Shown: piece after piece, positions 2,315 to 37,458 of the stretch
How the letters are laid out: each line of letters begins with the position of its first letter
Numbering within the stretch: the first letter of the stretch is position 1
From: an uncultured Polyangiales bacterium
GTDB taxonomy: Bacteria > Myxococcota_A > Polyangia > Polyangiales > DASUME01
Direction of reading: 5' to 3'
Assembly: GCA_964398415.1 (NCBI GenBank)
Contig: CAYNOM010000001.1
Coordinates: forward strand, 1 to 47,551
Length of the DNA stretch: 47,551 bases
The notes under the pieces: model-generated
Told to the model about the DNA's origin: nothing
Databases searched by the model: none
Seen by the model: only the letters and a program-made list of their open reading frames with translations
Made by a program: the position numbers and the translations under genes

Positions 2315-2321
2315 GCGCGCC

Positions 2322-23609: not shown

Positions 23610-25970
23610 ATGTACGCCGCGCTGGTTCGTTTGCGTGTTCCGATAGCCGTCGTGCTCTGCGCAGTCGTGGCGACGGCAGCGCTGGGGATCGCCCGCGCGG
23701 TCGTACCAGACAACTCGATCACGGCCTGGTTTCTGCCTGACGATCCAGCGGTGCAGAGCTACGAGCGCTTCCACGAGCACTTCGGCAACGATGAGGTGAT
23801 CCTCATCCAAGTGCACGAGCCGACGGGCGTGTTGACGCGAGACGTCCTCTCGCGTCTGCAGAAGCTCACGCACGCACTCGAGAACATCGACGGCATCGCC
23901 CGGGTGCACTCGGTCGTGACGGTCGAGGACGCCATCGACACGCCGGAAGGCATTCGCTTCGAGCGCAGGTTCAGCGATCCCTTACCGGACGATGCCGGCT
24001 TGATGCAAGCGGCGGCCGCGGCGCGCAACAGCGTCTTGTTTCGTGACCGCCTGCTGAACCCCTCGGGCACGCGCACGCTCTTGTGGGTCGAGATGGCGGT
24101 GTCCGATCGCGTGGACGACGAGCGCGGTCGCATCGTTCAGCAAGTCCGTGCGCAATCGGACCTCATCCTCGCTGGGCTCGAGCATCCCATGGCCGGATTC
24201 GGCGTGACCTACGCTGGGATCGACGAGCTCACCAAGCGCGACTTCGGGCTCTTTCTGGGTCTGTGTTACGCGGTGATGGTGGCATTTCTCGCTTGGGTCT
24301 TTCGCGAGCGCAGATTCGTCGTTGCCACCCTCGGCGTGATGCTTCTCAGCAGCGTCGCGGCGCTCGGGAGCCTCGGACTCGCGGGACATCGCATCAACAT
24401 GGTCACGTCCGTGCTGCCGACGTTGATCCTGGTCCTCGGCATCGCAGATGCGATTCACATGCCGGCTGCGTTCATGCTCGAAGAACGCGCACGTCCTGAT
24501 GCATCGCGTTTCGACATCGCGGTCGCGGCGCTGCGCCGTGTCGCGCTGCCCTGTCTGCTCACCAGCGCCACCACCATGGCGGGCTTCGCCTCGCTCGCCG
24601 TCTCGAAGATGGCGGTGATGTCCCAGCTCGGGCTGTTTGCGGCGATTGGGATGGCAGCGGCCTTGCTGCTGACGCTTTCGCTGATGACCGTCGCGTACAT
24701 GTCTGGCGCGAGGGCGCCCGCCACGGCGGCCCAGTCGTGGCTGTCGGCTTTGCTCGAAGCAGCCCACGCCTTCGTGACGCGGCGCACGGCTTGGGCCGCG
24801 GGCGTCCTGTTGACGTTGTCGGGGTGTGCTGTCTGGGGGGCACTGCAAGTCGAGGCAGACACCTATAGCCTCGGCTATCTTCCCGAGGACAGTCGCATCG
24901 TGACGGAGCACGAACAGATCGTCCGCGGCTGGGGCCACTACAGTCCGCTCGACTACACGATCGTGCCAAAGGAGGGGCAGCGCGTCGACAGCCCCGAGCT
25001 GTTGTCCAAGGTGGCCGAGTTCGTGCGCGAGGCGAGTCAGCTCGAGCAGGTTCACTACGGATTCGCAGCCCACGACTTCCACCGCGCGGTCGCTCAGGCA
25101 TTCGGTGCAGAGGTTCGCGCCGACGAGCCGCTCGCCAGCGACGTGATGGCCCAGGTCGGCCTGTTGCTCGAGGGCCAGGCGCAAGACCTCGAGTGGGATC
25201 AAACGAAGCCCGCCTACTTCGACAACTTCCTCGCACCGTTTCGCACGCGCGACGCCGACCTGGGCCGCGTCACCTTGGTGGTGGACATGATGAGCGCCCG
25301 GGGATTCGCGGAGCTGTTGGCCAAGCTCGAGCCCATCGCCGAGCGCACGCTGGGCGAATACGCTGCGCTGTCGCCGAGCGGCTACCTGCCGCTGTACGTC
25401 GGCGTGATCGACCACGTGATCTCGGCGCAGGTGCAGAGCTTCTTCATGGCGCTCGGCATCATCTTCGCCATCATGCTGATCTGGACGCGCTCCCTACGCC
25501 TTTCGTTGATCAGCCTCGTTCCGAATGTGTTCCCCGTGCTCGTGATGCTCGGTGTGATGGGTGCGTTCGATATCGACCTCGACATCGCCACGGCGACGGT
25601 GGCTGCCATCGTATTTGGCGTCGCGATCGACAACACCATCCACTTCATGCACCACTATCGCGAAGGGAAACGGCAGGGCCTCTCGTGGGACGATGCCCTC
25701 GCGCACTCCTATCGCAGTGCCGGTCATCCCGCGTTGATCACGGCGTGCTCGTTGCTCATCGGTTATCCCGTGCTGATGTTCGCGGCGGTCAAGCCCGTGT
25801 TCTATTTCGGGTTGCTCACGACGCTCGCTACGGTAGCCGCGCTCGTCGGAGATCTGTTGCTCTTGCCGCTGTTGCTGCGTTTCTTCGATCGTGCCCCTAG
25901 CCTTGCACCGTCATCTCGCGCGACGACGGCCGAGGTTGCGCTCGTCGACGGGCTTTCTTCCAGGAGATGA
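23610..25970 (+). CDS. MMPL/RND-superfamily transporter (HpnN-like lipid exporter architecture)
   Basis: 786-aa ORF with two repeats of one TM helix, a soluble loop and five TM helices. The N-terminus has the typical MMPL pattern (DNSITAWFLPDDPAVQSYERFHEHFGNDEVILIQV). The start lies 4 nt after the methyltransferase stop. Confidence 0.85.
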   Translation: MYAALVRLRVPIAVVLCAVVATAALGIARAVVPDNSITAWFLPDDPAVQSYERFHEHFGNDEVILIQVHEPTGVLTRDVLSRLQKLTHALENIDGIARVHSVVTVEDAIDTPEGIRFERRFSDPLPDDAGLMQAAAAARNSVLFRDRLLNPSGTRTLLWVEMAVSDRVDDERGRIVQQVRAQSDLILAGLEHPMAGFGVTYAGIDELTKRDFGLFLGLCYAVMVAFLAWVFRERRFVVATLGVMLLSSVAALGSLGLAGHRINMVTSVLPTLILVLGIADAIHMPAAFMLEERARPDASRFDIAVAALRRVALPCLLTSATTMAGFASLAVSKMAVMSQLGLFAAIGMAAALLLTLSLMTVAYMSGARAPATAAQSWLSALLEAAHAFVTRRTAWAAGVLLTLSGCAVWGALQVEADTYSLGYLPEDSRIVTEHEQIVRGWGHYSPLDYTIVPKEGQRVDSPELLSKVAEFVREASQLEQVHYGFAAHDFHRAVAQAFGAEVRADEPLASDVMAQVGLLLEGQAQDLEWDQTKPAYFDNFLAPFRTRDADLGRVTLVVDMMSARGFAELLAKLEPIAERTLGEYAALSPSGYLPLYVGVIDHVISAQVQSFFMALGIIFAIMLIWTRSLRLSLISLVPNVFPVLVMLGVMGAFDIDLDIATATVAAIVFGVAIDNTIHFMHHYREGKRQGLSWDDALAHSYRSAGHPALITACSLLIGYPVLMFAAVKPVFYFGLLTTLATVAALVGDLLLLPLLLRFFDRAPSLAPSSRATTAEVALVDGLSSRR

Positions 25971-25973
25971 AAC

Positions 25974-26465
25974 ATGATCACGATACGCGTCGAGACTCAC
26001 AAGCATGCGATCGTCCACGCCACGTTGCGTTCGGTCTTCGAGCTGCTCAGGAACGTGGAGGACGTCGCGCGCATGATGCCTGGCGTCGAGCGCACCGAGT
26101 CCGTGGGACCAGGCCGTTATCGCTGCGTGCTCAAGCCCCAGTCGACCCTGGGCATGACGTTCCAGGGCGACTACGTCTGCGCGTATCGAGACAATGGACG
26201 CGACGAGATTTCTTGGACCTCGCCCGAGGGCAACATGAAGTCGGAGGGCACGTTTCGCATCGCGGGTCGTGATCATGCCGTGGCGCTGTCCCTCTCGGTC
26301 GTCAGCGATGTCGAGCTGCCTTTTCCACGGATGGTACGCGTGCCAGCCCAGAAGTATGCGGAGTACGTGACGAGTCGCGGCGTGGACGTTCAGCTCGCGC
26401 GCATTCGAGACCGCCTCGAGGCCAAAGTCGCGAGCTACCCACAGGTCGCAACGCTCGCCGAGTGA
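25974..26465 (+). CDS. SRPBCC-superfamily (START/CoxG/polyketide-cyclase-like) ligand-binding protein
   Basis: 163-aa ORF. The pattern RVETHKHAIVHATLRSVFELLRNVEDVARMMPGVE...G..KSEGTFRI is typical of SRPBCC folds. The start lies 3 nt after the MMPL stop. Confidence 0.6.
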   Translation: MITIRVETHKHAIVHATLRSVFELLRNVEDVARMMPGVERTESVGPGRYRCVLKPQSTLGMTFQGDYVCAYRDNGRDEISWTSPEGNMKSEGTFRIAGRDHAVALSLSVVSDVELPFPRMVRVPAQKYAEYVTSRGVDVQLARIRDRLEAKVASYPQVATLAE

Positions 26466-26755
26466 AGATCTGCCTGGGCGTGTGAACAACTCGGCCGCCG
26501 CACTGTGACCGACTCGCAGACAGGGCGACCTCACCCGTCCGCGAGAATCGCTTGTATCTTCGAGCGACACATCGTGGCACGCAGCGTGCAGTGGCAAGCC
26601 CACGTCGCATGCGCTCACGGGCCTGCATGCGCAGGAGCGAGGGTTGACCGATGTGTGTAGACGTTGCGGAGAACGAGACCTTACCTGGTGGGCCGCCCAA
26701 CACGGCAACGCGAGCGGCCAGGGGGGCGAACAGGCAGCGTGATCGCGTGAACACA

Positions 26756-27706
26756 ATGCTCGCCCTGGGCCTGCTCGCGCTCGGCGGGTGCCAGGACAGC
26801 GTAGGTTTCGCGGTCGACGACGGCGGGGCCATCGACGGCGGGGCCATCGACGGAGAGGCCCCGATCGGCTCAGATGCCGACACCAGCTCGCAGGGCACGG
26901 ACGGCGCAGCATCGGGCGACGGCAGCCCGAGCGGTGGCGACGGCTGTATGCCACCCGACATGCTCCTCGTGCTCGACCGCACGATGAGTATGTCCAAGAC
27001 CCCCGCCGGCCCTTCACCCGAGAACACGACGGAGGGCCGTCGCGCGTCGAAGTGGCACCTCGCGATCGCTGCGTTCGAAACGCTCACGTCGCAGCTCGAC
27101 GGAACGATTCGCTTCGGCCTCGAGCTCTTTCCCAAGGACCCGGGCAAAGACCAATGCCTGACCCTCGCACAACGCATCGAAGGTCAGACCGCCACGAACG
27201 CGAAGTGCCAGGGCGGTGAAGTGTTGGTAGTGCCAGCGCTCGAGACAGGCGATGCCATCGCGAGTGCGCTCGATCCGGAGACAACCCTCTTGTGCACGAG
27301 CACGCCGATCGGAGCGGGCCTGGCCACGGCGCGCGCGGCCCTCTCCGACATCGCGAGTCAGGCGCGCAAGCAGTACGCCGTGCTGCTCACGGATGGCAGG
27401 GACACGTGCGACGAGTCGCTGTCGCTCACGAATGCGCAGAACCTCGTCTCCGACGGCGTTGGCCTGTACGTGATCGGATTCGATGGCTCGGGCAAGGGCG
27501 TCGACAACGGCCACCTCAACGACCTCGCCTGCGCGGGCCACACGGCCAAGGGCTTTCCTGACGCATGCGTGGAAGACGCCGCAGGCAACTTCACCGCGAA
27601 GGATCGCGAGGGCGCCGCGCTGTACATCCTCGCCCAAGATCAGACACAGCTGATCGACGAGCTGAAGAGCGTGGCCGGCCAGGTCTGCTGCAACTGCGTG
27701 ATCTGA
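26756..27706 (+). CDS. von Willebrand factor A (VWA) domain lipoprotein
   Basis: ORF 26651..27706 with the likely start at ATG 26756 (MLALGLLALGGC, lipobox). The MIDAS-like motif is LVLDRTMSMS. Later blocks GLELFP, TPIGAGL and VLLTDGRDTC fit a VWA fold. The C-terminus is Cys-rich (VCCNCVI). Confidence 0.8.
   Translation: MLALGLLALGGCQDSVGFAVDDGGAIDGGAIDGEAPIGSDADTSSQGTDGAASGDGSPSGGDGCMPPDMLLVLDRTMSMSKTPAGPSPENTTEGRRASKWHLAIAAFETLTSQLDGTIRFGLELFPKDPGKDQCLTLAQRIEGQTATNAKCQGGEVLVVPALETGDAIASALDPETTLLCTSTPIGAGLATARAALSDIASQARKQYAVLLTDGRDTCDESLSLTNAQNLVSDGVGLYVIGFDGSGKGVDNGHLNDLACAGHTAKGFPDACVEDAAGNFTAKDREGAALYILAQDQTQLIDELKSVAGQVCCNCVI
26822..26851 (+). repeat. perfect 15-bp tandem duplication (ggcggggccatcgac x2) inside the VWA lipoprotein linker
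   Basis: Read directly: 26822-26836 equals 26837-26851, encoding GGAID-GGAID. A degenerate third copy follows. Confidence 0.9.
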
Positions 27707-27715
27707 GTCAATGAG

Positions 27716-28339
27716 TCAGGTCGCTGTGGGCTCCGCGCGGGCCGCGCGGACGAAGGCCTGCACGAGCACCTGACTCTTCACGCCCGGCGAGCCCTCGACG
27801 CCGCTCGCCGTGTCCACGCAGAAGGGCGACACGGCGCGGATGGCGTCGGCTACGTTTTCGGCCGTCAGGCCGCCCGCCAACGTCAGCTTGCGCTCTGCGG
27901 CCACCTGGCTCGCAACGCTCCAGTCGAAGGTTGCGCCGGTGCCTCCCGGGAGTCCCGGCACGTAGGCGTCGAGCAGGATGTGCTCGCCAGGATAGCGACG
28001 CGCATCCTCCACCGCCGAGCGACCACGCACGCGCAAGGCCTTGTACGCGTGGGGCAAGAGCTGCGCGACCAGGTCGGGAGGCTCGTCGCCGTGCAGCTGC
28101 ACGCAACCTAGGCCGAGCTCTCCGATGTGCCGCCGAATCTCCTCGAGCTCAGCGTCGACGAACACCCCGACGACCAGCACACGGCCTTGCACAGCCTGCG
28201 CGATGGCCTTCGCGGTGTCGAAGGCGCAGGCGCGCACCGAACCTGGCCAGAAATTCAGCCCAAGAGCATCGACGCCGGCCTCGACACACATCAGCGCGTC
28301 TTCGACCGAGGTCAGCCCGCACACCTTCACGCGCGTCAT
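27716..28339 (-). CDS. trpF: phosphoribosylanthranilate isomerase
   Basis: ORF 27716..28351 with the likely start at MTRVKVCGLTSVEDALMCVEAGVDALGLNFWPGS. This is the canonical TrpF N-terminus (KICG...D...GAD..G.F). The protein is about 207 aa. Confidence 0.88.
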   Translation of the reverse strand: MTRVKVCGLTSVEDALMCVEAGVDALGLNFWPGSVRACAFDTAKAIAQAVQGRVLVVGVFVDAELEEIRRHIGELGLGCVQLHGDEPPDLVAQLLPHAYKALRVRGRSAVEDARRYPGEHILLDAYVPGLPGGTGATFDWSVASQVAAERKLTLAGGLTAENVADAIRAVSPFCVDTASGVEGSPGVKSQVLVQAFVRAARAEPTAT

Positions 28340-28389
28340 CCCCAAGACCATAGCAGCGCGCGGTCGGCCTGCCTCGTCGTCGCAGGAGC

Positions 28390-28767
28390 TCAGTCGAGCT
28401 TGAGCAGCTCCTTGACCTTCTCGATCACCTGCGGCGCCTGGATCGGCTTCGTGATGTAGGCATTGGCCCCGAGGGCCAGGGCGCGAGTGCGATCTTCCTG
28501 GGAGCCCTCGGTGGTGATGATGATGATCGGCACATCCTTGTGCGCCTCATCGGTTCGGATCCGCTTCACCAACTTCAGCCCATCCATGATCGGCATGTTG
28601 ATGTCGGTGATGATGATGTCGAACTTGGCTCCAGCCAGTTTGCGCAGGCCATCGACGCCGTCGTCTGCCTCCGTCACCTCGACCTCACGCACACGCTGCA
28701 AAGCGAAGACGAGAAGCTGCCGCATCATGGGCGAGTCTTCGACAACGAGACATCGGTACTGGGCCAT
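28390..28767 (-). CDS. cheY: single-domain response regulator (CheY-like), distal copy
   Basis: 125-aa ORF with VVEDSP, the phospho-acceptor IITDINMPIMDG, IIITTEG and YITKP (conserved Lys). Confidence 0.9.
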   Translation of the reverse strand: MAQYRCLVVEDSPMMRQLLVFALQRVREVEVTEADDGVDGLRKLAGAKFDIIITDINMPIMDGLKLVKRIRTDEAHKDVPIIIITTEGSQEDRTRALALGANAYITKPIQAPQVIEKVKELLKLD

Positions 28768-28773
28768 GTAGCC

Positions 28774-29670
28774 TCACTTCAAACTCTCGCCGAGGCCGGC
28801 GAGAGCGCTGAGTAGGTCTTGTTCTTTCTGATACAGATGCGCCGCGAGCAGCGCGGTCGCGGCATGTGAGCCGAGGAGATGAAACAGCTCCTGGTCGACC
28901 TGGACCCAGGCGTGCTTTTGCTCGAGCAGCTGCACGATGGCGATCACCCCCACGGTTTGGTTGTCGACCAGCATGGGCAACACGGCGAGCGGGCTCTGGA
29001 GCGAGCCCTCGCCGAGCGGATCGCCCTGCTTGACCGACGACACCCCGCTCGCGCACACGCTGCCGATCGCGCCTTGGCCTATCGTGATCGGCACGAGCTC
29101 GCTCTCGATGATGCCCTCGGAGCCCACCGGCATGGCGTGCGTGCCCTCGTCGTTCAGCACGTAGACCGCGAAGCGTTCAGCGCCCACCAACTGCGCGAGC
29201 AGCTCTTTGATGTGCTGCAAGACGTGAGCGGGCTTGAGCGTCGAGTGGAGCTGAAAGCTCGCCACGTACAGATTGGCCAGGTCGTTCAGCTCCTGCTCGA
29301 TGGCCGCATAGCGCCCTTCGTGACGCCGTGAGGCCTGCTCGAGCTGACTCGACTTCTCGAGCAGACTGCGCTTCTCTTGCTCGAGTCGCTCGATGTTGCG
29401 CAGAAAGTCGCGGATCGCGTCGTCGCTCTTCACCTGAGCCCGGAGCGCGGCGTTGTCGGCCTCGAGCATGTTGATGCGGTGCCGCAGCCCGTCGTTCTCG
29501 TGAAGCAGCTCCTCCGTGAACTCGACGCCCTTGCGCAGGAAGTTGCGCACGAAGGCCTCACGCTCACGGGTCAGCTCCCCGGATGAGCTGGGTCTCGGAT
29601 GAATGGTCGGGCTGTCGTCGTCCATTTCGCTCGTGCTCTCGCTCATGTTCCCATGCCCATGCGTGGTCAC
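28774..29670 (-). CDS. coiled-coil plus GAF-domain protein
   Basis: 298-aa ORF. The N-terminal heptad-rich segment reads RHRINMLEADNAALRAQV...IERLEQEKRSLLEKSSQLEQASRR. It is followed by a GAF-like block: LKPAHVLQHIKELLAQLVGAERFAVYVLND...GAIGSV...LAVLPMLVDNQTVGVIAIVQLL. Its start overlaps the cheB stop (ATGA). Confidence 0.7.
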   Translation of the reverse strand: MTTHGHGNMSESTSEMDDDSPTIHPRPSSSGELTREREAFVRNFLRKGVEFTEELLHENDGLRHRINMLEADNAALRAQVKSDDAIRDFLRNIERLEQEKRSLLEKSSQLEQASRRHEGRYAAIEQELNDLANLYVASFQLHSTLKPAHVLQHIKELLAQLVGAERFAVYVLNDEGTHAMPVGSEGIIESELVPITIGQGAIGSVCASGVSSVKQGDPLGEGSLQSPLAVLPMLVDNQTVGVIAIVQLLEQKHAWVQVDQELFHLLGSHAATALLAAHLYQKEQDLLSALAGLGESLK

Positions 29671-30761
29671 ACAATGAGATCTGCAAGATGGGTCGCCAGT
29701 GCACCGAGGGGCAGACTGCGATCGACCTCACCCGTGCGGACCGCTGCGCCCGGCATGCCGTAGATCACGGCCGTTTCGGGCGCTTCGGCGTACACCGTCC
29801 CGCCATGCGCCTTGATCGCGACCACACCGCGCGCACCGTCGTCGCCCATGCCCGTGAGCACGACGCCGATCACGCGCTCGGCCGCCACCTCGGCTGCGCT
29901 CTTGAAGAGTCGATCGACTGAAGGGATGAAGCGATCGCCTGGCGCAGGATCCACCACGCTCGCCGCAAAGCCGTTTCCGAACGTGACGATCTCGAGGCAC
30001 TTGCCGCCAGGACACAACACGGCCTTGCCCGGCGTGAGTGGCTCGAACTCGCGCGCCTCACTGACCTTGAGCCCTCCGAGCTTGTGCAAGCGCTCGGCGA
30101 AGGTTCGCGTGAAGCGCTCGGGCATGTGCTGCGCCACCACCACCGCCGCATTGGAGGCGGGCTTGAAGTGGGAGAACACCTCGACGAGCGCGCTCGGTCC
30201 GCCCGTCGAAGCGCCGATCACCACCAGCTTGTTCACCGCTTGATCACGCTCGACCACGACCGGCGGCGCGGGCGCGGGCATGGCCGTCGCCGGTTGGCTG
30301 AAGACGCCGGTCAAGGGGCCTCCAGCGCGCACGACGCGGCGCTTTGGATCTCGGCCCGCCGGGGTGAGCTGGCGGACCATCGACACCTTCTCTCCGAGCT
30401 CCTGCTCGATGGCGGACAGGTCGCTCGCGATGGTGCGCGTCGGCTTGGCGATGAAGTCGATGGCTCCGAGCTCGAGCGCGCGAAAAACGTTCTCTCGAGC
30501 AGAGTTGCCGCTGACGACGATCACCGGCGTGGGCTGGCGTGCCATCAACAGGCGCAGGAAGGTGAAGCCATCCATGCGCGGCATTTCGAGGTCCAAGGTG
30601 ATCAGATCGGGCGTCAACGAGGCCGCGAGCTTCAGCGCTTCGTCGCCATCGGCGGCTTTGCCGACGACCTCGACCCCGTCGATGTTCATCAACAGGTCTC
30701 CAATCGTGCGTCGATTGAAGGCTGAATCGTCTACGACCATCACGCGCAACTTGGCGGTCAT
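29667..30761 (-). CDS. cheB: chemotaxis response regulator protein-glutamate methylesterase
   Basis: 364-aa ORF. The receiver domain has VMVVDDS and LITLDLEMPRMDG. The CheB catalytic domain has VVIGASTGGPSAL, VVAQHMP..FT..FA.RL and LTGMGDDGA. Confidence 0.93.
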   Translation of the reverse strand: MTAKLRVMVVDDSAFNRRTIGDLLMNIDGVEVVGKAADGDEALKLAASLTPDLITLDLEMPRMDGFTFLRLLMARQPTPVIVVSGNSARENVFRALELGAIDFIAKPTRTIASDLSAIEQELGEKVSMVRQLTPAGRDPKRRVVRAGGPLTGVFSQPATAMPAPAPPVVVERDQAVNKLVVIGASTGGPSALVEVFSHFKPASNAAVVVAQHMPERFTRTFAERLHKLGGLKVSEAREFEPLTPGKAVLCPGGKCLEIVTFGNGFAASVVDPAPGDRFIPSVDRLFKSAAEVAAERVIGVVLTGMGDDGARGVVAIKAHGGTVYAEAPETAVIYGMPGAAVRTGEVDRSLPLGALATHLADLIV

Positions 30762-31642
30762 CGAGTCTCTCCCTTTCCTAGAGGAGGCTTTGCGGGAGTC
30801 GGTGGCTTTCGGTATGCGAGATCGGATGAGAGATGCATGAGCTCGAATGCGGTTGACACGTTGAGGAGTGACTCGCTGTGCCCGAGGAACAGATACCCTT
30901 CGGGCTGCAGGCGCTCGTAGAAGCCCTCGATCACTTTACGCCGTGACGCGGTGTCGAAGTAGATCAGTACGTTACGGCAGAAGATCGCTTCTACCATCCC
31001 GATCACGCTGTAGCGTGCCGCATCGAGCAGGTTGAGGTGCGCAAAGTTGCACATGGCGCGAATGTCCGCGCGCACCGTGCGCCCCTCCGAAGTCTCCACG
31101 AAGTACTCCGCATACTGCTCGGGCATGCTGCGAAAGCTTGACGGACCGTAGGTCGCCCGGCGCGCCACCTGCAGCACGCGACGCGAGATGTCGTTGCCGA
31201 TCACGCGTACATCCCAGCCCTCGAACATACCCGATTCGCGGATCAGAATGGCGAGCGTGTAGACCTCCTCGCCCGTCGAGCAGCCAGCGCTCCAGATCGA
31301 GAGCCTGCGCATCCGACGACCACGCTCGTAGAGCATCGGCAGCACCTCACGCTGAAACGCGCGTAGCTGGTACTCCTCGCGAAACAGGTAGGTCTCGTTG
31401 GTGGTGAGCACATCTACCGCGCGCTCGATCTCCGCCTTGGCATCCGGGTGATAGCGCAGGTAGTGGTAGTACTCGCCGAAGTCGGCGATATCGAGATCTT
31501 GCAGGCGTTCCTTGAGCTTGCGTTCGAGCACGAACTGCATGTCGTCCGGAAAGCGAATGCCGCAGAAGTCGTTGACCAAGTCCCGCAGGAGGCGAAACTC
31601 CTCCGGCTTGATCTTCGGGCCCGTATCGAAGAGCAAGGGCAC
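30758..31642 (-). CDS. cheR: chemotaxis protein-glutamate O-methyltransferase
   Basis: 294-aa ORF with TTNETYLFRE, RLSIWSAGCSTGEEVYTLAIL, VIGNDIS, FCRNVLIYFD and LFLGHSES. Confidence 0.93.
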   Translation of the reverse strand: MPLLFDTGPKIKPEEFRLLRDLVNDFCGIRFPDDMQFVLERKLKERLQDLDIADFGEYYHYLRYHPDAKAEIERAVDVLTTNETYLFREEYQLRAFQREVLPMLYERGRRMRRLSIWSAGCSTGEEVYTLAILIRESGMFEGWDVRVIGNDISRRVLQVARRATYGPSSFRSMPEQYAEYFVETSEGRTVRADIRAMCNFAHLNLLDAARYSVIGMVEAIFCRNVLIYFDTASRRKVIEGFYERLQPEGYLFLGHSESLLNVSTAFELMHLSSDLAYRKPPTPAKPPLGKGETR

Positions 31643-31643: not shown

Positions 31644-33695
31644 TTAGGCCTCCTCTCCGAGGGCTCTGAGAGCCTGAATGAAGGCCACGCGCGCGAGATC
31701 GTCCGACTCGTGCTCGAGCTGCGATTTCAGCGCCGGCACGGCATTCACCACGCCGAGGTCGCCTATCAGCTCGGCCGACATCTGGCGCACATCCCACGCC
31801 GCGTGGGAGAGCGCGGCGATGAGCTTCTCGGGCGCCGCCGGATCGTGACTGTCCGAGAGGGCCTTGAGCGCGGCCTTCACGACCTCGCGATCGGCGTGGT
31901 GCAGCGCGTCTTCGAGGATGCCCGCGAGCTCGCCGGGGCTCAGCGCCCCGAGCGCCTCCACCGCCGCCATGGCCGCGCCCGTATCCTCGGAGCGTAAGAG
32001 CTCCTGCAATGGCTCCACCGCACGCGTGGAGCCGGTGTAGCCGAGGGCCCGGGCGGCCGCCTGACGGATCTGGGGTAGCTCCGAGCCGAGCGCGAGAATG
32101 AGCTCTGCGGCGCCCGGCGCATCGCCGGCCTCGTCGCGAATGTGCCCGAGCACCTGGGTCGCGACCACTTGCACCGTGGGGTCCTCGTCGGCGAGGGCGA
32201 GCGCGACGAGCTCCGCGGCACGCCGCCCTCCGACGCGCCCGAGCCCGTGCAGCGCCGCCCGGCGCACGTCCGCGTCGTCGCCGGACAGAAGCCCCTGCAA
32301 ACGGTCGAGCGCACGGGGCCCACCGAGCGCGGCGACCACCGGAGCCAAAGCGCCACTCTGCGGCCCCGACAGCGTCGCACCGGAGAGGGCCTTCTCGACC
32401 GCATCGGGCGCACGTCGCACGAGGGCCTCGAGGGCCGTGGCACAGGCGCGGGCGACGGCAGGATCGGCCGAGAGCGCATGTCCGACCAAGAGCGCTGCAT
32501 CGGCATCGTCTGCCCAGTGCGCGAGACAGCGCGCCGCGGCCGCCACGATCGGGTGCTCGCGATCGGACAGACTGCGCCGCAAGGTGCTGCGCACGCGCTC
32601 GCGCACCGCAGGCTCGATGCCCTCCGCGACGAGCGCGAGATCGGCAGTGAGCTCGAGCGCCACCGCCCGCTCCTGCACGCTCGAGAGCGTCGGCAAGAGG
32701 GCCAGCATCGGCGCCACCGCGTCGCGTCCCCAGGCCCGGAGCGCAGCCAGAGTCTGGGGCGAAGGCGCCTCGCTCGTCAGATGCGCGACGAGCGCCGACA
32801 GCGACTCGGAATCGCGAGCCCAAGCGAGCAGCTCTGCGGCCGAGCGGCGCGCCTCCGCATCACCACTGCCCGTGAGCACCGCACGCAGCCAGGCCCGAGC
32901 GCGGTCGTCGAGCAAGGCAAGCCGTGGCGCCGCCGCCTTGGCGATCTGAGGCGAGCCACCGCTGAGGCGCGCGATGGCGATGGCCGCCGCGCCCACCACG
33001 TGCACGGTCGACTCCTCGAGCGCAGAAAACAGGGGCTCGAGGGCTTCGATGCGCCCCGTACGGCCCAGGGCCGAGATGGCCACACGGCGCAGCAGGCGAT
33101 CGGTCAAGAGCGGCTCGAGCTCCTCCCAGGGGATCACGGCGTGCAAACGATTGAGCGCGTCGAGAGCCGCCATGCGCAGGAACGGATCGCTGGCGCCGAG
33201 CCTCGAGCGCATGATCCGCTCGGCTTCGGGCCCCCCGATGCGCGCCAGGGCTTCGATGGCTTCACCGGCCACGTTCGGGTCCTCGGACGCCGCAGCCTTC
33301 GCGAGCTCGCGCACGACCTGATGCCCGCCCGACTCGCCCAGCGCTTCGACCACGAACTTGCGCGCGTGCTCAGGCACGTTGGGCAGCGCTGCGATCAGCG
33401 CCGGTGCAGCGTTCGGTCCGAGGGACTCGAGCACGTCGAGCGCGGCGTTGCGCAGGCCCACGTTCTCGCCCTGACAGATCGACTGCACGAGCGCCTCGAT
33501 CAGAGACAGCTCGACCGCCCGCTTCGTCGCGACCTGCACGGCTTCCTTGCGCACGCGCCAGTCATCGTCGCCCAAGGCCTCGAGGATCAAGGGCCCCACC
33601 GCTTCGTCCACCTCGGTGGCAGCGTGCAGAACGCCACGCCGGCGCGTCTCCGCGTCCGGATCCAAGAGAGCCTGCTTCAAGCGCTCGACGCTCAT
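31644..33695 (-). CDS. HEAT-repeat (PBS-lyase-type) protein, about 683 aa
   Basis: ORF 31644..33950. I placed the start at ATG 33695 (MSVERLKQALLDPDAETRRRG), which forms an ATGA overlap with the cheW stop. The upstream extension is Arg-rich. Repeats of the type D..VR..A..ALG recur along the whole length, for example GDDDWRVRKEAVQ, SEDPNVAGEAIEALARIG, SGDDADVRRAALHGLGRVG, ELPQIRQAAARALGYTG and HAAWDVRQMSAELIGDLG. Confidence 0.8.
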   Translation of the reverse strand: MSVERLKQALLDPDAETRRRGVLHAATEVDEAVGPLILEALGDDDWRVRKEAVQVATKRAVELSLIEALVQSICQGENVGLRNAALDVLESLGPNAAPALIAALPNVPEHARKFVVEALGESGGHQVVRELAKAAASEDPNVAGEAIEALARIGGPEAERIMRSRLGASDPFLRMAALDALNRLHAVIPWEELEPLLTDRLLRRVAISALGRTGRIEALEPLFSALEESTVHVVGAAAIAIARLSGGSPQIAKAAAPRLALLDDRARAWLRAVLTGSGDAEARRSAAELLAWARDSESLSALVAHLTSEAPSPQTLAALRAWGRDAVAPMLALLPTLSSVQERAVALELTADLALVAEGIEPAVRERVRSTLRRSLSDREHPIVAAAARCLAHWADDADAALLVGHALSADPAVARACATALEALVRRAPDAVEKALSGATLSGPQSGALAPVVAALGGPRALDRLQGLLSGDDADVRRAALHGLGRVGGRRAAELVALALADEDPTVQVVATQVLGHIRDEAGDAPGAAELILALGSELPQIRQAAARALGYTGSTRAVEPLQELLRSEDTGAAMAAVEALGALSPGELAGILEDALHHADREVVKAALKALSDSHDPAAPEKLIAALSHAAWDVRQMSAELIGDLGVVNAVPALKSQLEHESDDLARVAFIQALRALGEEA

Positions 33696-34207
33696 TTTCC
33701 CCCCGTGAGCATCGGTGGAATGGTGCTCGTGTCGATTTCGTCGGCGGCCGACGCGACGACCTGAGGATCGACGACGAACACGAGGCTGCCCTCGTGCGAA
33801 TAGACGTTGGCGATCCCGCGACGCTCCGCACCGGAGCCGATCTCGGGCAGGTTGCGTTGCTCTCTGTGGCCAGCCCCAAACACGTCGGTCACGGCGTCCA
33901 CCACGAGCGCAACCGGCTGCGCACGATGGGGCAGGCGCACGATGATCCACTTGGTGCGGCGCGTCGCCTCCGTGCGCGGGAGCCCGAAGCGACAGCGTAG
34001 ATCGACCACGGGCAAGACGTCTCCACGATGGTCTGCGACGCCAAGCACCTCGGTGGGCGCGTGGGGCAAGGTGACCGTCGGCAGTGGATTGACGATCTCA
34101 CGCACGATGTGAATCTCGACGGCATAGCGCACCTCTCCCACGAGGAAGCTCACCAGATTCTTCGCCTGGTCCGAACGGTAACGCGTGGTGGCATCGTGCT
34201 CGGTCAT
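33692..34207 (-). CDS. cheW: CheW-like coupling protein (second copy)
   Basis: 171-aa ORF with LVSFLVGEVRYAVEIHIVREIV..P.VT.LP.AP..VLGVADHRGDVLPVVDLR...IIV...VALVVDAVTDV, a CheW domain pattern. Confidence 0.88.
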   Translation of the reverse strand: MTEHDATTRYRSDQAKNLVSFLVGEVRYAVEIHIVREIVNPLPTVTLPHAPTEVLGVADHRGDVLPVVDLRCRFGLPRTEATRRTKWIIVRLPHRAQPVALVVDAVTDVFGAGHREQRNLPEIGSGAERRGIANVYSHEGSLVFVVDPQVVASAADEIDTSTIPPMLTGGK

Positions 34208-34752
34208 CGTTGCAGCAAAGGCTCGGCGTTGAGCAGGATGAGGATGTCGTTCGGGTCATCGCGGTCTTGGCTCGAAGAGCGACCGAGGGTACGCACGGCA
34301 CGCGGGCGACCGATGCCCAGGACGTACTCGTTCATCTCGCCCCCCACGGCGGATGCGAGCTCGACCTCGTCTTCGTAGAGCCGGTAAACCTGCAGCACCG
34401 AATCCACGAGCATACCGAGGATCTCGTCTCCTGCGTCGACGAGAAGCACGCGTGTGTTTTTGTCCATCGGGGCTTCGACGAGGCGCAGACGCCGGCGCAG
34501 ATCCAGCACCGTCGTAACGCGCCCGCGCACCGACACGATGCCGAGCACCTCGTAGGGCGAGCGCGGCACCTGCGTGATTCGCGGCGGCTTCAGGATCTCC
34601 TGCACGCCCGCGAGCGGCAGGGCGTAGGTCTCACCGCCCAGCTTGAAGGCCAAGAACTCGTAGATCGCGCCGTCCGCGCCGGTCAGACGCTGGTTGCCCT
34701 TGCTGTCGCCCTGCATCACGCCTGGCACGAGGCTCGGCACGAGCATGCTCAT
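34204..34752 (-). CDS. cheW: CheW-like coupling protein (first copy)
   Basis: ORF 34204..35049. The start at ATG 34752 (MSMLVPSL) forms an ATGA overlap with the cheA stop. The CheW pattern is YEFLAFKLGGETYALPLAGVQEIL...VLGIVSVRGRVTTVLDLRRRL...VLLVDAGDEILGMLVDSVLQV. Confidence 0.88.
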   Translation of the reverse strand: MSMLVPSLVPGVMQGDSKGNQRLTGADGAIYEFLAFKLGGETYALPLAGVQEILKPPRITQVPRSPYEVLGIVSVRGRVTTVLDLRRRLRLVEAPMDKNTRVLLVDAGDEILGMLVDSVLQVYRLYEDEVELASAVGGEMNEYVLGIGRPRAVRTLGRSSSQDRDDPNDILILLNAEPLLQR

Positions 34753-36884
34753 GACATGACCTCCATCATGCGTGCGCGGTCGGAGCCGGCCAGCATCTCC
34801 TCGAGGATCTGCGGCGTATCGAGCACCAAGGTCACGGCCTGGTCGCCGAGATCCGTGGCGCCAGCGAAGCCGCGCACCCCAGCCACACTCTGCCCCAGCG
34901 ACTTGATGACGATGTCCTGCTGGCCGAGCAGGAGATCGACGACCATGCCGAGCCGCCGCGCACCGAGCTGACTGACGACCACGAACTGCCGTGTCGACCT
35001 CTCGTGCCCGGGCGGCTCTTCGAGCCGAAACAGATCGCGGATACGGCACAGCGGCAGCGTGCCACCGCGCAGCGTCATCACCTCGCGCCCTTCGACCGTG
35101 CGAATGGCCTTCGGATCGAGCATCAACGCTTCCTGCACATTGGCGAGCGGGATCGCGTAGGTGTGCCCCGACACGCGCACGACGAGCGCGCTGATGATCG
35201 CCAACGTGATCGGCAGCGTGATGATGAAGGTCGTGCCCTTGCCCACCTCGCTGCGCAGGTCGACGACGCCCCCGAGCTTACCGATGTTCGTCTTGACCAC
35301 GTCCATGCCCACGCCGCGGCCCGACAGATCGGTCACCTGCTCGGTGGTACTGAAGCCCGGCATGAAGATCATGTTGAGGATGTCTTCGCGGCTGAGCTCG
35401 TCTCGCTCCTTTTCGGAGATCAGACCTCGGGAGATGGCCTTGTCGACGATGCGCTGCGGATCGATGCCCGCGCCGTCGTCCTTCACCTCGATCAAGACGT
35501 GATTGCCCTTCTGGTAGGCGTACAGCGCCAGAAAGCCGATGGGATTTTTGCCGCGTTCTTTGCGCTTGTCAGGGGCCTCGATGCCGTGATCGATGGCGTT
35601 TCGGATCAGGTGCATGAGTGGATCACTCAGCTCCTCGACGATCAGCTTGTCGACCTCCGTCTCCGAGCCCTTCACCTCGAGGCGGATCTCCTTTTTCGCA
35701 TCGCGAGCAGCCTGCCGCACCACGCGCGCGAGCTTGTCGAACACCTGCCCGAGCGGCACCATGCGCACGTCGAGGATGCCATCCTGCAGCTCGGCGAGGT
35801 TGCGCTCGAAGCCGCGCGCGATGCGGTGCAGCTCGGTCGACAGCGTGCGAAGCTCGGGCCGATCGCGCAGGCGCTCGGTGATCTGAGCGACGGCACCGCG
35901 TACGATCGCGAGCTCTCCCACCACGTTCATCAGGTGGTCGAGCTTCTGGATGTTGACGCGCACCGTGTTCGCGACCGAACGCAGAGACAGCGCATCGGCG
36001 CCCACCTTGTCCATCACCTGCGGCGGCACCGTGGGCGGCGGGGCGGCCGTGAGATCGGGCGCACCCTTGTCCCCAATCGCAGGCTCGGGGGCGACCTGGG
36101 GAACGACCGTATCGATGCGTTGCGCACCGCGGCGCGGCACCGGCTGTAGCACCGCGTCGTCGCTACACAGGATCTCCTTGAGCTGTAGCGGATCGGCCCG
36201 ACTCGCGAGCAGCACCTCGAGCTCGATCAGATCGTCGCTGCCGCCTCCCATGCTCGGCAGGTACGTGATGAGCTCGGCCACGGGGCGGGCTCGCGCCTTG
36301 AGATCCTCGAGCGCGGTGTCGATGGACGCGAGCGCGAAGCTCACGCTCAGTCGGTAGAGCTGCACGCCTTGCGCAATGTTCGTGCGCAGCCGGTGCTCCT
36401 CGTACTCGGTCAGGACCGAGAGCACGTTCTCGCCGAGCTCGTACTCCGAGAGGACGTCGCGTTCTTCGGGCGCCTCGGCCACCCGATCGACGCTGTCTGC
36501 GAAGTCCGAGACGTCGACGTCGTCGGCATCGTCTCCGCTCGATGCGAGGATGCGCTGGATGCGCTCCACGCCGTCGAACAAGACGTCGAGGGTGTCCTGC
36601 GTGATGTCGACGCGACCCAGGCGCAGGTCGTCGAGCAGGTTCTCGAGCGAGTGGGCCAGGTTCGACAGGCTCGTCATGCCGAACATGCCCGCGAGGCCCT
36701 TGAGCGTGTGCACCGCGCGGAAGATGTCGTTGAGCAGATCGGGGTCGTTGCGTCCCTCCTTCTGACTCTGCTCGAGCAGAAGCAAGTCGCGGGATAGCGT
36801 CTCGACGATCTCCTGCGCCTCCGACAGGAACTCCTCGCGAACGCTGTCGTTCTCGTCCCCGGCCACTAGGCTAAACCCCCCCAA
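34749..36884 (-). CDS. cheA: chemotaxis histidine kinase CheA (P1-P5, no C-terminal receiver)
   Basis: 711-aa ORF. P1/Hpt reads IFRAVHTLKGLAGMFG and the dimerisation domain reads VRVNIQKLDHLMNVVGELAI. The kinase boxes are N LIRNAIDHGIE, G1 DDGAGID, F FMPGFST and G2 GRGVGMDVV. The P5 CheW-like region reads LVVRVSGHTYAIPLANVQE. The start must be non-ATG: TTG 36884 or GTG 36866. Confidence 0.93.
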   Translation of the reverse strand: MGGFSLVAGDENDSVREEFLSEAQEIVETLSRDLLLLEQSQKEGRNDPDLLNDIFRAVHTLKGLAGMFGMTSLSNLAHSLENLLDDLRLGRVDITQDTLDVLFDGVERIQRILASSGDDADDVDVSDFADSVDRVAEAPEERDVLSEYELGENVLSVLTEYEEHRLRTNIAQGVQLYRLSVSFALASIDTALEDLKARARPVAELITYLPSMGGGSDDLIELEVLLASRADPLQLKEILCSDDAVLQPVPRRGAQRIDTVVPQVAPEPAIGDKGAPDLTAAPPPTVPPQVMDKVGADALSLRSVANTVRVNIQKLDHLMNVVGELAIVRGAVAQITERLRDRPELRTLSTELHRIARGFERNLAELQDGILDVRMVPLGQVFDKLARVVRQAARDAKKEIRLEVKGSETEVDKLIVEELSDPLMHLIRNAIDHGIEAPDKRKERGKNPIGFLALYAYQKGNHVLIEVKDDGAGIDPQRIVDKAISRGLISEKERDELSREDILNMIFMPGFSTTEQVTDLSGRGVGMDVVKTNIGKLGGVVDLRSEVGKGTTFIITLPITLAIISALVVRVSGHTYAIPLANVQEALMLDPKAIRTVEGREVMTLRGGTLPLCRIRDLFRLEEPPGHERSTRQFVVVSQLGARRLGMVVDLLLGQQDIVIKSLGQSVAGVRGFAGATDLGDQAVTLVLDTPQILEEMLAGSDRARMMEVMS

Positions 36885-36913: not shown

Positions 36914-37306
36914 TCACTCGTTGCCGTCGCTCCGCGCCTCGGACTGCCCCACCAAACGTTTCGCCGTCTCGCGCAGCTCCTCGGGCAGAAAGGGCTTCGT
37001 GAGATAGGCATTGGCCCCGAGCGCCATGCCCCGCTCCCGATCTCTCTGCGCGCCCTCGGTGCTCACGATGATCACGGGCGTCGTCTTGTGCTGCGCCGTC
37101 TTGCGCATGAACGAGATCAACTCGAGCCCGTGGATGTCCGGCATGTTGATGTCGGTCACCACCAGATCGTACTGCTCACGGGGCAGCAGTCTGAGCGCCT
37201 CGAAGCCGTTGCCGGCCTCCGTCACCTCCGCTAGGCCGCCCTCCTCGAGAGTGGCCCGAACGAACGTGCGCATGGCCGGAGAGTCTTCGACGACGAGCAC
37301 TCGCAT
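36914..37306 (-). CDS. cheY: single-domain response regulator (CheY-like), proximal copy
   Basis: ORF 36914..37393 with the likely start at MRVLVVEDSPAMR (ATG 37306). GGAGG lies upstream. It has VVTDINMPDIHG, IIVSTEG and YLTKP. Confidence 0.9.
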   Translation of the reverse strand: MRVLVVEDSPAMRTFVRATLEEGGLAEVTEAGNGFEALRLLPREQYDLVVTDINMPDIHGLELISFMRKTAQHKTTPVIIVSTEGAQRDRERGMALGANAYLTKPFLPEELRETAKRLVGQSEARSDGNE

Positions 37307-37458
37307 AGTCAAAGCTGCCTCCCCTTCTGCACAGCCCTCGGGGGATCGTAACCGAAACGGCAATTGCTTTGAAAGATCGCGGGAAAGGATCACGAAATCG
37401 TAGCGGGAGAGTGCGGCATGCTGCGCATCTCACCACAGGGTGCGCGCGCGTAAGTGCT

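What the first reader, a model, noticed from the sequence alone, without database searches (positions are those of the whole stretch)
31644..33695. 683-aa all-HEAT-repeat protein in the slot between cheW and cheR, translationally coupled to cheW
PBS-lyase-type HEAT repeats (the D..VR..A..ALG pattern) recur from the N-terminus to the C-terminus, and I see no other domain. The start codon overlaps the cheW stop (ATGA at 33692-33695). The stop lies 1 nt before the cheR ATG, which suggests stoichiometric co-production with the coupling and adaptation proteins. In canonical che operons this position is often taken by the receptor gene. A HEAT solenoid of this size could act as a scaffold or as the regulated output, as proposed for Cpc7 in M. 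xanthus.
Basis: partly seen in the sequence, partly recalled or inferred. Interest (0 to 1): 0.6.

Follow-up and report, generated by a model that had tools for sequence, protein, structure and literature searches.

The report
HEAT scaffold of Che8-type operon
The 683-residue helical-repeat protein encoded between cheW and cheR is a real, conserved subunit of a known but little-studied chemotaxis-like operon that has no receptor gene (Myxococcus Che8 / Geobacter beta-group type), and it is most likely a docking platform for the methyltransferase CheR and a CheY, not a stand-in for the receptor.

Summary
Window 31644-33695 (-) encodes a 683-aa protein made only of HEAT repeats. AlphaFold2 gives 42 helices at pLDDT 93.5. 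Its ATG overlaps the cheW stop, and its TAA lies 1 nt before the cheR start, which is GTG, not ATG.

The coupling is not special to this gene: five other junctions in the operon overlap by 4 nt.

The gene has full-length, nearly gap-free orthologues (about 665-690 aa) in Polyangia, other Myxococcota classes and Geobacteraceae. In about 100 loci it always sits directly before cheR, in the order cheY-cheA-cheW-cheW-[mcp]-HEAT-cheR-cheB-[GAF-cheY].

It does not replace the receptor. In other Myxococcota classes the receptor gene lies just upstream of HEAT. In this genome its closest relative is an unlinked MCP on another contig, which co-occurs with the cluster.

The layout matches the published mcp-less beta-group / Che8 / Esn cluster type. 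Cpc7 of Che7 is the only studied HEAT protein in a bacterial che cluster of this kind.

Evolutionary-rate covariation ties HEAT most strongly to CheR, then to CheY1. That fits a docking scaffold, but no binding was tested.

The scan has noted this cluster type before on other DNA. Verdict: a new member of a known kind, of modest interest.

The parts
36914..37306 (-). cheY1: single-domain response regulator, first gene of the operon. The likely start is the ATG at 37306; the longest frame reaches 37393.
   Evidence: Pfam Response_reg E 3.6e-30. The sequence has the acceptor-site residues (DSP, TDINMP, STEG, KP). It is present upstream of cheA in every related locus.
34749..36884 (-). cheA: histidine kinase with Hpt, dimerisation, HATPase and CheW-like P5 domains.
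   Evidence: Pfam. Its stop overlaps the cheWa start (ATGA).
34204..34752 (-). cheWa: first coupling protein, 182 aa.
   Evidence: Pfam CheW E 3.7e-30. Start fixed at the ATGA overlap with cheA.
33692..34207 (-). cheWb: second coupling protein, 171 aa.
   Evidence: Pfam CheW E 8.2e-26. It has ATGA overlaps on both sides.
31644..33695 (-). The finding: a 683-aa all-HEAT alpha-solenoid of about 21 two-helix repeats.
   Evidence: Pfam HEAT_2 E 1.1e-57. AF2 model pLDDT 93.5 with 42 helices. Foldseek matches only large HEAT scaffolds: SF3B1, CAND1, karyopherin-beta2 and the PP2A A subunit. More than 1400 homologues of tightly conserved length.
33246..33572 (-). Codons for residues 42-150 (repeats 2-5), the most conserved stretch of the protein. 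Near-invariant residues are G42 D43 W46 R47 V48 R49 K50, N78 G80 R82 N83, R112 K113 F114 and D139 N141. It is a candidate partner-binding surface.
   Evidence: Weighted conservation over 234 full-length family members from Polyangia, Geobacteraceae and others. The same motifs align with Geotalea sp. SG265 protein P0219.
30758..31642 (-). cheR: methyltransferase, 294 aa, GTG start 1 nt after the HEAT stop.
   Evidence: Pfam CheR_N + CheR E 1.1e-55. GGAGG lies 8-9 nt upstream of the GTG. It follows HEAT within about -13 to +34 nt in 84 of 90 loci.
29667..30761 (-). cheB: methylesterase with a receiver domain.
   Evidence: Pfam. 4-nt overlaps with cheR and with the GAF gene.
28774..29670 (-). Coiled-coil + GAF protein, 298 aa.
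   Evidence: Pfam GAF_3/GAF_2/GAF. It is conserved after cheB in the nearer Polyangia relatives, in other Myxococcota classes and in Geobacteraceae. It was not found after cheB in 36 mostly Polyangiaceae/Labilithrix loci.
28390..28767 (-). cheY2: second single-domain response regulator, last gene of the operon.
   Evidence: Pfam Response_reg E 7.4e-30. It is the slowest-evolving protein of the cluster among mid-distance relatives (median 81% identity where HEAT is 44%).

Best explanation
The gene encodes a non-catalytic HEAT solenoid of about 21 repeats. It is an integral, co-translated subunit of a non-flagellar chemosensory pathway of the beta-group / Che8 / Esn type: cheY-cheA-cheW-cheW-HEAT-cheR-cheB-GAF-cheY. 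The pathway's receptor is encoded elsewhere, and the MCP on contig C136 is the candidate.

I propose that the solenoid is a docking platform. Its conserved N-terminal repeats 2-5 and its C-terminal repeats would hold the methyltransferase CheR, and probably phospho-CheY1 as well. This would link the phosphorelay to the adaptation branch, to downstream partners, or to both.

Shown here:
- the fold;
- the family and its tight length conservation;
- the invariant HEAT-cheR adjacency;
- the coexistence of HEAT with an in-cluster MCP in other classes;
- the co-occurrence of the cluster with the unlinked MCP;
- the rate covariation of HEAT with CheR and CheY1.

Inferred only:
- any physical binding;
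- which face binds which partner;
- the physiological output.
For: 1. All-HEAT fold, with structural matches only to protein-binding scaffolds.
2. Orthologues are 665-690 aa and align almost without gaps over 698 columns. This points to a fixed architecture, not a loose repeat array.
3. In 83 Polyangia loci the order is always cheY-cheA-cheW-cheW-HEAT-cheR-cheB. The same module is colinear in a Geobacteraceae MAG, where all eight window proteins match.
4. The upstream neighbour varies (cheW here, mcp in other classes, Zn-ribbon-REC in Geobacteraceae). cheR follows HEAT with a median gap of 0 nt, within -13 to +34 nt in 84 of 90 loci.
5. Mirror-tree analysis on 43 loci, with the mean distance of the other proteins regressed out. 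HEAT-CheR has the highest partial correlation of all 21 pairs (0.58; 5-95% range 0.47-0.65 over 300 subsamples; best partner of HEAT in 264 of 300). The known CheA-CheW complex comes second (0.55) and HEAT-CheY1 fourth (0.37). Other adjacent pairs score low (cheWb-HEAT 0.02, cheR-cheB 0.19).
6. Near-invariant family-specific residues cluster in repeats 2-5.
7. Precedents: Cpc7 binds CheY7 in M. xanthus (Darnell 2014, as summarised in PMC11514114). A haloarchaeal HEAT_PBS protein interacts with CheD and CheF and is essential for taxis (PMC2666748).
Against: - No interaction was tested, and the tools return no complex model or contact map.
- Mirror-tree correlations use non-independent pairs. 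Lineage-specific rate shifts or shared recombination tracts between neighbouring genes can inflate them.
- HEAT is the fastest-evolving protein of the cluster (median 34% identity where CheA, CheR and CheY1 are 54-57%). Constraint is therefore limited to patches.
- Sequence homology to Cpc7 itself could not be checked.
- Several of the 'invariant' residues (D43, V48, R49, A52) belong to the generic HEAT_PBS repeat motif and may be structural.
Confidence: 0.5

Rival explanations
1. Pure output target, as in the Cpc7 model. Phospho-CheY (CheY1 or CheY2) binds the solenoid, and the solenoid relays the signal to unknown downstream proteins. It has no role in adaptation, and its position before cheR is historical.
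For: - Published CheY7-Cpc7 interaction (cited in PMC11514114).
- By locus tags, the gene slot between mcp7 (MXAN_6962) and cheR7 (MXAN_6960) matches this position.
- HEAT-CheY1 has the second-best covariation for HEAT.
- The pathway has no flagellar link, so it needs a protein-protein output.
Against: - Covariation with CheR is stronger and more stable than with CheY1.
- Adjacency to cheR is conserved across phyla while everything upstream varies.
- Loss of GAF-CheY2 in 36 mostly Polyangiaceae/Labilithrix loci leaves the HEAT conservation profile unchanged (r 0.74, no relaxed region). CheY2 is therefore unlikely to be the key partner.
Confidence: 0.27
2. Structural part of the receptor array, or a replacement for the receptor. 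The solenoid takes the MCP's place, bridges CheA and CheW, and might itself be the CheR/CheB substrate.
For: There is no mcp in the window or within 9 kb of the gene in 83 Polyangia loci, yet cheR and cheB are kept.
Against: - In other Myxococcota classes a large MCP is encoded directly upstream of the same HEAT gene, so the two coexist.
- The closest relative of that MCP in this genome is an unlinked gene. It scores about 200 bits against the in-cluster MCPs, versus less than 110 bits for the other three MCPs.
- That MCP is present in 35 of 35 same-order genomes with a strong HEAT match, and in 3 of 13 without.
- In Geobacter an unlinked MCP (EsnA) interacts with the CheW and CheA of the same cluster type in two-hybrid assays.
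- HEAT shows no covariation with CheA, CheWa or CheWb (about -0.06 to 0.02).
Confidence: 0.06
3. Bilin-lyase or NblB-like chaperone that loads or removes a cofactor on the GAF protein of the operon.
For: Weak similarity to NblB, CpcE, CpeY and CpcF models (E 5e-20 to 1e-5). A GAF protein is encoded two genes downstream.
Against: - All scores are far below the curated cut-offs (72 bits against 300 for NblB, 47 against 330 for CpcE). They reflect the shared repeat only.
- The protein is about three times longer than E/F-type lyases.
- 36 mostly Polyangiaceae/Labilithrix loci keep HEAT with the same conservation profile but show no GAF gene after cheB.
Confidence: 0.04

Closest known systems
Myxococcus xanthus Che8 cluster (MXAN_4751-4759; Moine et al. 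2014, PMC3945109)
   Same: By the published tables the order is cheY8b, cheA8, cheW8b (188 aa), cheW8a (174 aa), two unlisted genes, cheR8 (290 aa), cheB8, cheY8a, with no mcp8. Here the order is cheY, cheA, cheW (182 aa), cheW (171 aa), HEAT, cheR (294 aa), cheB, GAF, cheY, with no mcp.
   Different: I could not retrieve the Che8 sequences, so orthology rests on gene order and lengths only. Whether MXAN_4754 or MXAN_4755 is the HEAT gene is inferred. CheA8 is longer (862 aa against about 711 aa). The function of Che8 is unknown.
Geobacter 'beta-group' che cluster / Esn network (Tran et al. 2008, PMC2577667; Chan et al. 2017, PMC5585712)
   Same: - It is an mcp-less cluster with cheA, cheW, cheR and cheB, conserved in delta-proteobacteria including M. 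xanthus and Plesiocystis.
- A Geobacteraceae locus is colinear with the window: CheY1 54%, CheA 44%, HEAT 29% over residues 13-679, CheR 49%, CheB 46%, GAF 39%, CheY2 60%.
- An unlinked MCP (EsnA) serves the cluster's CheW and CheA. This parallels the unlinked MCP found here.
   Different: The Geobacteraceae version has three extra genes absent here: PATAN-REC, an AAA ATPase between cheA and cheW, and a Zn-ribbon-REC gene just before HEAT. The HEAT gene itself was not studied in those papers.
Cpc7, the HEAT-repeat partner of CheY7 in the M. xanthus Che7 system (Darnell et al. 2014, J Bacteriol 196:3160)
   Same: It is a HEAT-repeat protein of a non-motility che cluster. By locus tags it is encoded between mcp7 and cheR7. 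That is the same order as the mcp-HEAT-cheR clusters of other Myxococcota classes, which carry full-length relatives of this protein.
   Different: Cpc7 is described with 27 helices against 42 here. Che7 has one cheW, its own mcp and a desaturase gene, and no GAF-cheY tail.
Haloarchaeal HEAT_PBS taxis protein OE2401F (Schlesner et al. 2009, PMC2666748)
   Same: It is an all-HEAT_PBS protein encoded in che regions. It is needed for signal output and interacts with Che-pathway proteins (CheD, CheF).
   Different: It is archaeal, always sits next to CheF (DUF439), and acts at the archaellum switch. There is no CheF here. The resemblance is one of function only.
Phycobilisome HEAT proteins CpcE/CpcF/NblB
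   Same: The same PBS-type HEAT repeat motif.
   Different: Scores lie far below the family cut-offs. Length, context and organism all differ. It is not a member.

Membership tests
HEAT / PBS-type alpha-solenoid repeat proteins (Pfam HEAT_2, HEAT, HEAT_PBS) | Tandem two-helix repeats that match the HEAT models above the gathering score. | tested here: met
   HEAT_2 192.7 bits (cut-off 27.7), HEAT 70.8 (23.5), HEAT_PBS 26.1 (20.9). 42 helices in the AF2 model.
Bilin lyase / NblB equivalogs (NCBIfam CpcE, CpcF, CpeY, NblB) | A score above the curated equivalog cut-off. | tested here: not met
   72 against 300, 47.5 against 330, 46.8 against 600 and 24.8 against 220 bits.
beta-group / Che8 / Esn-type chemosensory cluster | The cluster holds cheA, cheW, cheR and cheB but no mcp. 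| tested here: met
   Pfam on all genes of the cluster and its flanks. MCPsignal hits in the genome lie only on four other contigs.
beta-group / Che8 / Esn-type chemosensory cluster | Sequence-level colinearity with a Geobacteraceae cluster that has an ATPase between cheA and cheW, as in the published GSU2222-2221-2220 order. | tested here: met
   L147: CheY, CheA, AAA_22, CheW, CheW, Zn-ribbon-REC, HEAT, CheR, CheB, GAF, CheY. All eight window proteins hit in order.
beta-group / Che8 / Esn-type chemosensory cluster | Served by an unlinked MCP. | tested here: inconclusive
   The candidate MCP on C136 is the closest relative of the in-cluster MCPs of other classes and co-occurs with the cluster. 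No interaction data exist.
M. xanthus Che8 | Orthology of the component proteins to MXAN_4751-4759. | not testable with these tools
   Only the published gene order and lengths could be compared. Probes of unnamed Myxococcota genomes did not recover a recognisable Myxococcus cluster.
Cpc7-like CheY-binding HEAT proteins (Che7) | Sequence homology to Cpc7. | not testable with these tools
   The paper is not held and the sequence could not be retrieved.
Cpc7-like CheY-binding HEAT proteins (Che7) | Phosphorylation-dependent binding to the cluster's single-domain CheY. | not testable with these tools
   This needs biochemistry or multimer modelling. The only indirect signal is the HEAT-CheY1 covariation of 0.37.
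Haloarchaeal HEAT_PBS taxis protein (OE2401F type) | Adjacent to a CheF (DUF439) gene in an archaeal che/fla region. | tested here: not met
   No DUF439 among the neighbours. The context is bacterial.

The most novel reading that the evidence does not exclude
The solenoid is a phospho-CheY-controlled tether for CheR. CheY1~P binding to one end of the HEAT superhelix would change how the other end presents CheR (and perhaps CheB) to the unlinked, pentapeptide-less receptor. Methylation, which is constitutive in textbook chemotaxis, would then come under phosphorelay feedback. This would make the protein a new class of adaptation scaffold, shared by Che7-, Che8- and Esn-type pathways in several phyla.
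Probability: 0.2. Interest if true: 0.6.

Novelty: new member of a known kind. Interest (0 to 1): 0.3.

Why it matters
Chemosensory pathways with functions other than motility are common in Myxococcota, in Geobacter and elsewhere. How they produce an output and how they adapt is largely unknown.

This HEAT protein is a universal, fixed-length component of one such pathway type, and it has never been studied directly.

Three results give concrete, cheap experiments in tractable relatives such as G. sulfurreducens, M. xanthus and Labilithrix luteola:
- it always precedes cheR and co-evolves with it;
- it coexists with the receptor and does not replace it;
- a defined, near-invariant N-terminal patch exists.

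For the scan itself the result is mostly a clarification. The apparent receptor-less operon with a HEAT protein in the receptor's place is an already described cluster type whose receptor gene has moved.

Tried and rejected
1. Receptor replacement or methylation substrate. Rejected because an MCP and HEAT coexist in relatives, and the related MCP is unlinked here and co-occurs with the cluster.

2. Special coupling to cheW. Rejected because all junctions in the operon are coupled.

3. Bilin lyase or NblB. Rejected on NCBIfam cut-offs and on the GAF-less clades.

4. Test of whether loss of GAF-CheY2 relaxes part of the solenoid. It does not: the profiles correlate at 0.74 and no region stands out. 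GAF and CheY2 are therefore unlikely to be the main partners.

5. Search for the M. xanthus Cpc7 and Che8 HEAT sequences. All of these failed:
- the paper is not held;
- locus-tag literature searches found nothing, and no supplement text was found;
- weak HEAT hits in large-genome families turned out to be unrelated HEAT proteins without che neighbours;
- CheR-centred probes of five genomes found no orthologous cluster;
- a back-translated WRVRKEA DNA pattern was too strict and added only two chance hits.

6. A read-through fusion of HEAT and CheR for structure prediction. Considered and dropped, because the tool returns no contacts or PAE and so no interface could be judged.

7. The long open frames around the far-class MCPs looked like CheW-MCP fusions. 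The frames differ, so they are not fusions (coordinates).
Full report
**1. Observation**

The minus-strand ORF 31644-33695 translates to 683 residues without a stop. A longer frame from GTG 33950 exists. However, 16 diverse orthologues align from the ATG at 33695, and gene calls in three relatives start at the same place.

Pfam finds only HEAT-type repeats: HEAT_2 at E 1.1e-57 in 8 stretches, plus HEAT and HEAT_PBS. NCBIfam has no family above its cut-off.

AlphaFold2 with alignment A1 gives a confident all-helical model, with mean pLDDT 93.5, pTM 0.73 and 42 helices, which is about 21 hairpins. Foldseek against the PDB returns only large HEAT scaffolds: SF3B1, CAND1, karyopherin-beta2 and the PP2A A subunit, at TM 0.3-0.54.

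The ATG overlaps the stop of the upstream cheW (ATGA). The TAA stop is followed by 1 nt and then the cheR start. That start is GTG, not ATG, and it is preceded by GGAGG.

**2. The operon**

On the minus strand the genes run as follows:

| Gene | Coordinates |
|---|---|
| recO (flank) | upstream |
| cheY1 | 36914-37306 |
| cheA | 34749-36884 |
| cheWa | 34204-34752 |
| cheWb | 33692-34207 |
| HEAT | 31644-33695 |
| cheR | 30758-31642 |
| cheB | 29667-30761 |
| coiled-coil + GAF protein | 28774-29670 |
| cheY2 | 28390-28767 |
| trpF (flank) | downstream |

Five junctions overlap by 4 nt: cheA/cheWa, cheWa/cheWb, cheWb/HEAT, cheR/cheB and cheB/GAF. Coupling is therefore a property of the whole operon, not of the HEAT gene.

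There is no mcp in the window. The genome (a MAG of 8.17 Mb in 1579 contigs) has four MCPsignal hits, all on other contigs.

**3. The family**

The large protein database holds more than 1400 homologues. The best 120 are 42-99% identical and, apart from one 461-aa fragment, 673-716 aa long. A 17-sequence alignment spanning 41-73% identity is almost gap-free over 698 columns.

In the species-representative genome set, 499 stretches encode a relative. The best 80 are all Polyangia: Polyangiales, Sandaracinaceae, Polyangiaceae, and the cultured Labilithrix luteola DSM 27648.

I ran tblastn with the window's Che proteins and the genome's four MCP signalling domains against all 83 loci. Every locus shows cheY-cheA-cheW-cheW-HEAT-cheR-cheB as far as the contig reaches, and none has an MCP hit within 9 kb.

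GAF-cheY2 follow cheB in the nearer relatives. They were not found after cheB in 36 mostly Polyangiaceae/Labilithrix loci.

**4. Where the receptor is**

A search of 300 sampled genomes of the phylum found full-length relatives outside the class as well. In those genomes the cluster reads cheY-cheA-cheW-cheW-MCP-HEAT-cheR-cheB-GAF-cheY. A roughly 900-1000-aa MCP frame lies directly between cheWb and HEAT (for example G228 has the MCP at 1,293,194-1,294,357 and HEAT at 1,296,269-1,298,338). HEAT and the receptor therefore coexist, and HEAT is not a substitute for the receptor.

Of this genome's four MCPs, three sit in their own che clusters on C68, C87 and C10. The fourth, on C136, is unlinked to any che gene and lies between a Ser/Thr kinase gene and tatA/tatC. 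It is by far the closest to the in-cluster MCPs, at about 200 bits against less than 110 for the other three.

Using the same genome sample, this MCP type co-occurs with the cluster:

| Group | Genomes with a strong HEAT match (E < 1e-50 in the order; E < 1e-40 in the class) | Genomes without one |
|---|---|---|
| Same order (MCP at E < 1e-70) | 35 of 35 have the MCP | 3 of 13 have the MCP |
| Same class (MCP at E < 1e-100) | 6 of 6 | 0 of 4 |

Related genomes are not independent, so this is a pattern and not a statistic.

Where both genes lie on one contig in Polyangia they are 0.47-2.1 Mb apart (G140, G085, G240).

If the C136 frame is read from its upstream Met, it has two hydrophobic segments, then a charged coiled coil, then the signalling domain. 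Pfam finds no sensor domain.

**5. What is already known**

Leads from earlier notes of this scan pointed to Che8 and to the Geobacter beta group. I checked both.

- Tran et al. [quoted passage not shown] They are conserved in Geobacter, Stigmatella, Anaeromyxobacter, Plesiocystis pacifica and M. xanthus.
- The tables of Moine et al. 2014 give M. xanthus Che8 as CheY8b(4759)-CheA8(4758)-CheW8b(4757, 188 aa)-CheW8a(4756, 174 aa)-[4755, 4754 not listed]-CheR8(4753, 290 aa)-CheB8(4752)-CheY8a(4751), with no Mcp8.
- The same tables give Che7 as CheY7(6965)-CheA7-CheW7-Mcp7(6962)-[6961]-CheR7(6960)-CheB7. They place Che7 and Che8 in one phylogenetic group.
- The order and sizes here match Che8. The mcp-HEAT-cheR order in the other classes matches Che7.
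- Chan et al. 2017 show that in G. sulfurreducens the CheW (GSU2220) and CheA (GSU2222) work with an unlinked MCP, EsnA. The two genes are separated by an ATPase gene.

For a sequence-level test I used a far relative of the HEAT protein as query. It finds 660-690-aa relatives in Geobacteraceae, Geotalea sp. SG265, Desulfuromonadales, Nitrospirota and Thermodesulfobacteriota.

One Geobacteraceae locus reads PATAN-REC, CheY, CheA, AAA ATPase, CheW, CheW, Zn-ribbon-REC, HEAT (673 aa), CheR, CheB, GAF, CheY. All eight window proteins hit it in order. The N-terminal motifs align with the Geotalea protein.

The gene is thus the HEAT subunit of a published cluster type. That subunit itself has not been studied.

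The only characterised HEAT protein of a bacterial che cluster is Cpc7, which binds CheY7 (Darnell 2014, as summarised). I could not obtain that paper or the sequence, so homology to Cpc7 is untested. A haloarchaeal HEAT_PBS protein that interacts with CheD and CheF is a functional analogue.

**6. Clues to mechanism**

(a) Conservation. Over 234 full-length members, the near-invariant residues cluster in repeats 2-5: G42 D43 W46 R47 V48 R49 K50; N78 G80 R82 N83; R112 K113 F114; D139 N141. A few more lie in the C-terminal third: R478, D503, V508, W634, V636, R637. Residues 240-460 are the least conserved. Some of these residues belong to the generic repeat motif. W46, R47, K50, N78, N83, K113, F114 and N141 are specific to the family.

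(b) Rate. HEAT is the fastest-evolving component of the cluster. Its median identity is 34% where CheA, CheR and CheY1 are 54-57%.

(c) Neighbours. The upstream neighbour varies: cheW, mcp or Zn-ribbon-REC. cheR follows with a median gap of 0 nt, within -13 to +34 nt in 84 of 90 loci. The CheR starts are estimated from alignment offsets.

(d) Loss of GAF-CheY2. The 36 loci that lack GAF-cheY2 keep the same HEAT conservation profile (r 0.74, no relaxed segment). This argues against GAF or CheY2 as the main partner.

(e) Rate covariation on 43 loci, after regressing out the mean distance of the other proteins:

| Pair | Partial correlation |
|---|---|
| HEAT-CheR | 0.58 (5-95% range 0.47-0.65) |
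| CheA-CheWb (known complex) | 0.55 |
| CheA-CheB | 0.43 |
| HEAT-CheY1 | 0.37 |
| cheR-cheB (adjacent genes) | 0.19 |
| cheWb-HEAT (adjacent genes) | 0.02 |
| HEAT with CheA, CheWa, CheWb | about 0 |

HEAT-CheR is the top pair of all 21 in 191 of 300 subsamples, and CheR is the best partner of HEAT in 264 of 300. The low values for other adjacent pairs show that adjacency alone does not explain the signal. The N-terminal third of HEAT covaries most with CheR (0.54). This is weak evidence, but it agrees with (c).

**7. Reading**

The most likely reading (0.5) is a non-catalytic docking scaffold of the pathway that holds CheR and probably phospho-CheY1.

The rivals are:
- a pure CheY~P output target on the Cpc7 model (0.27);
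- an array component or receptor substitute (0.06);
- a bilin-lyase-like chaperone for the GAF protein (0.04).

The remainder is unknown. No binding was tested, and the tools give no complex models.

**8. Verdict**

The finding is a new member of a known kind. The same cluster type has been noted repeatedly by this scan on other DNA. Interest is modest. The useful additions are the relocated cognate-receptor candidate, the defined conserved patch, and the link between HEAT and CheR.

Noticed in passing
L134:4791-6905 (+), own genome contig C136: An MCP with no che genes nearby, lying between a Ser/Thr kinase gene and tatA/tatC. If read from the upstream Met it has two hydrophobic N-terminal segments. 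These are followed by a long Arg/Glu/Ser/Asp-rich periodic coiled coil and the signalling domain. Pfam finds no sensor domain and there is no C-terminal pentapeptide. It is the likely cognate receptor of the window's che operon.
   Followed up: partly
window 36914-37393 (-): The longest cheY1 frame (159 aa, GTG start) carries a 29-residue N-terminal extension that relatives lack. The ATG at 37306 (130 aa) is the likely start.
   Followed up: partly
window 25911-28351 (-) versus L001-L003: The flanks recO-che operon-trpF are syntenic across Polyangia. In relatives trpB and trpA follow trpF. In this window two ORFs without any Pfam match (27014-27637 and 25911-27017) follow trpF instead.
   Followed up: no
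L057, L059, L130 (G165), L129 (G230), L002/L015: In several MAGs the HEAT, cheA, cheB or cheY genes appear split into two adjacent frames. Some of these assemblies may be long-read. The splits look more like assembly indels than real pseudogenes.
   Followed up: no
L147:8027-9001 and 1652-3343 (Geobacteraceae MAG): The Geobacteraceae version of the cluster carries three genes absent from the Polyangia version: a Zn-ribbon + receiver gene directly upstream of HEAT, a PATAN-receiver gene at the head of the cluster, and an AAA ATPase between cheA and cheW.
   Followed up: no
L131 (G285:C22) and G265/G280 (genus g27): One same-order genome keeps only an N-terminal HEAT fragment next to cheWb. Two others keep the unlinked MCP type but show no strong HEAT match. 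These may be cases of cluster decay.
   Followed up: no
window 28390-28767 (-): CheY2 is the slowest-evolving protein of the cluster at mid distance (about 81% identity where HEAT is 44%). It is nevertheless lost, together with the GAF gene, in the loci that lack GAF (mostly Polyangiaceae/Labilithrix).
   Followed up: partly
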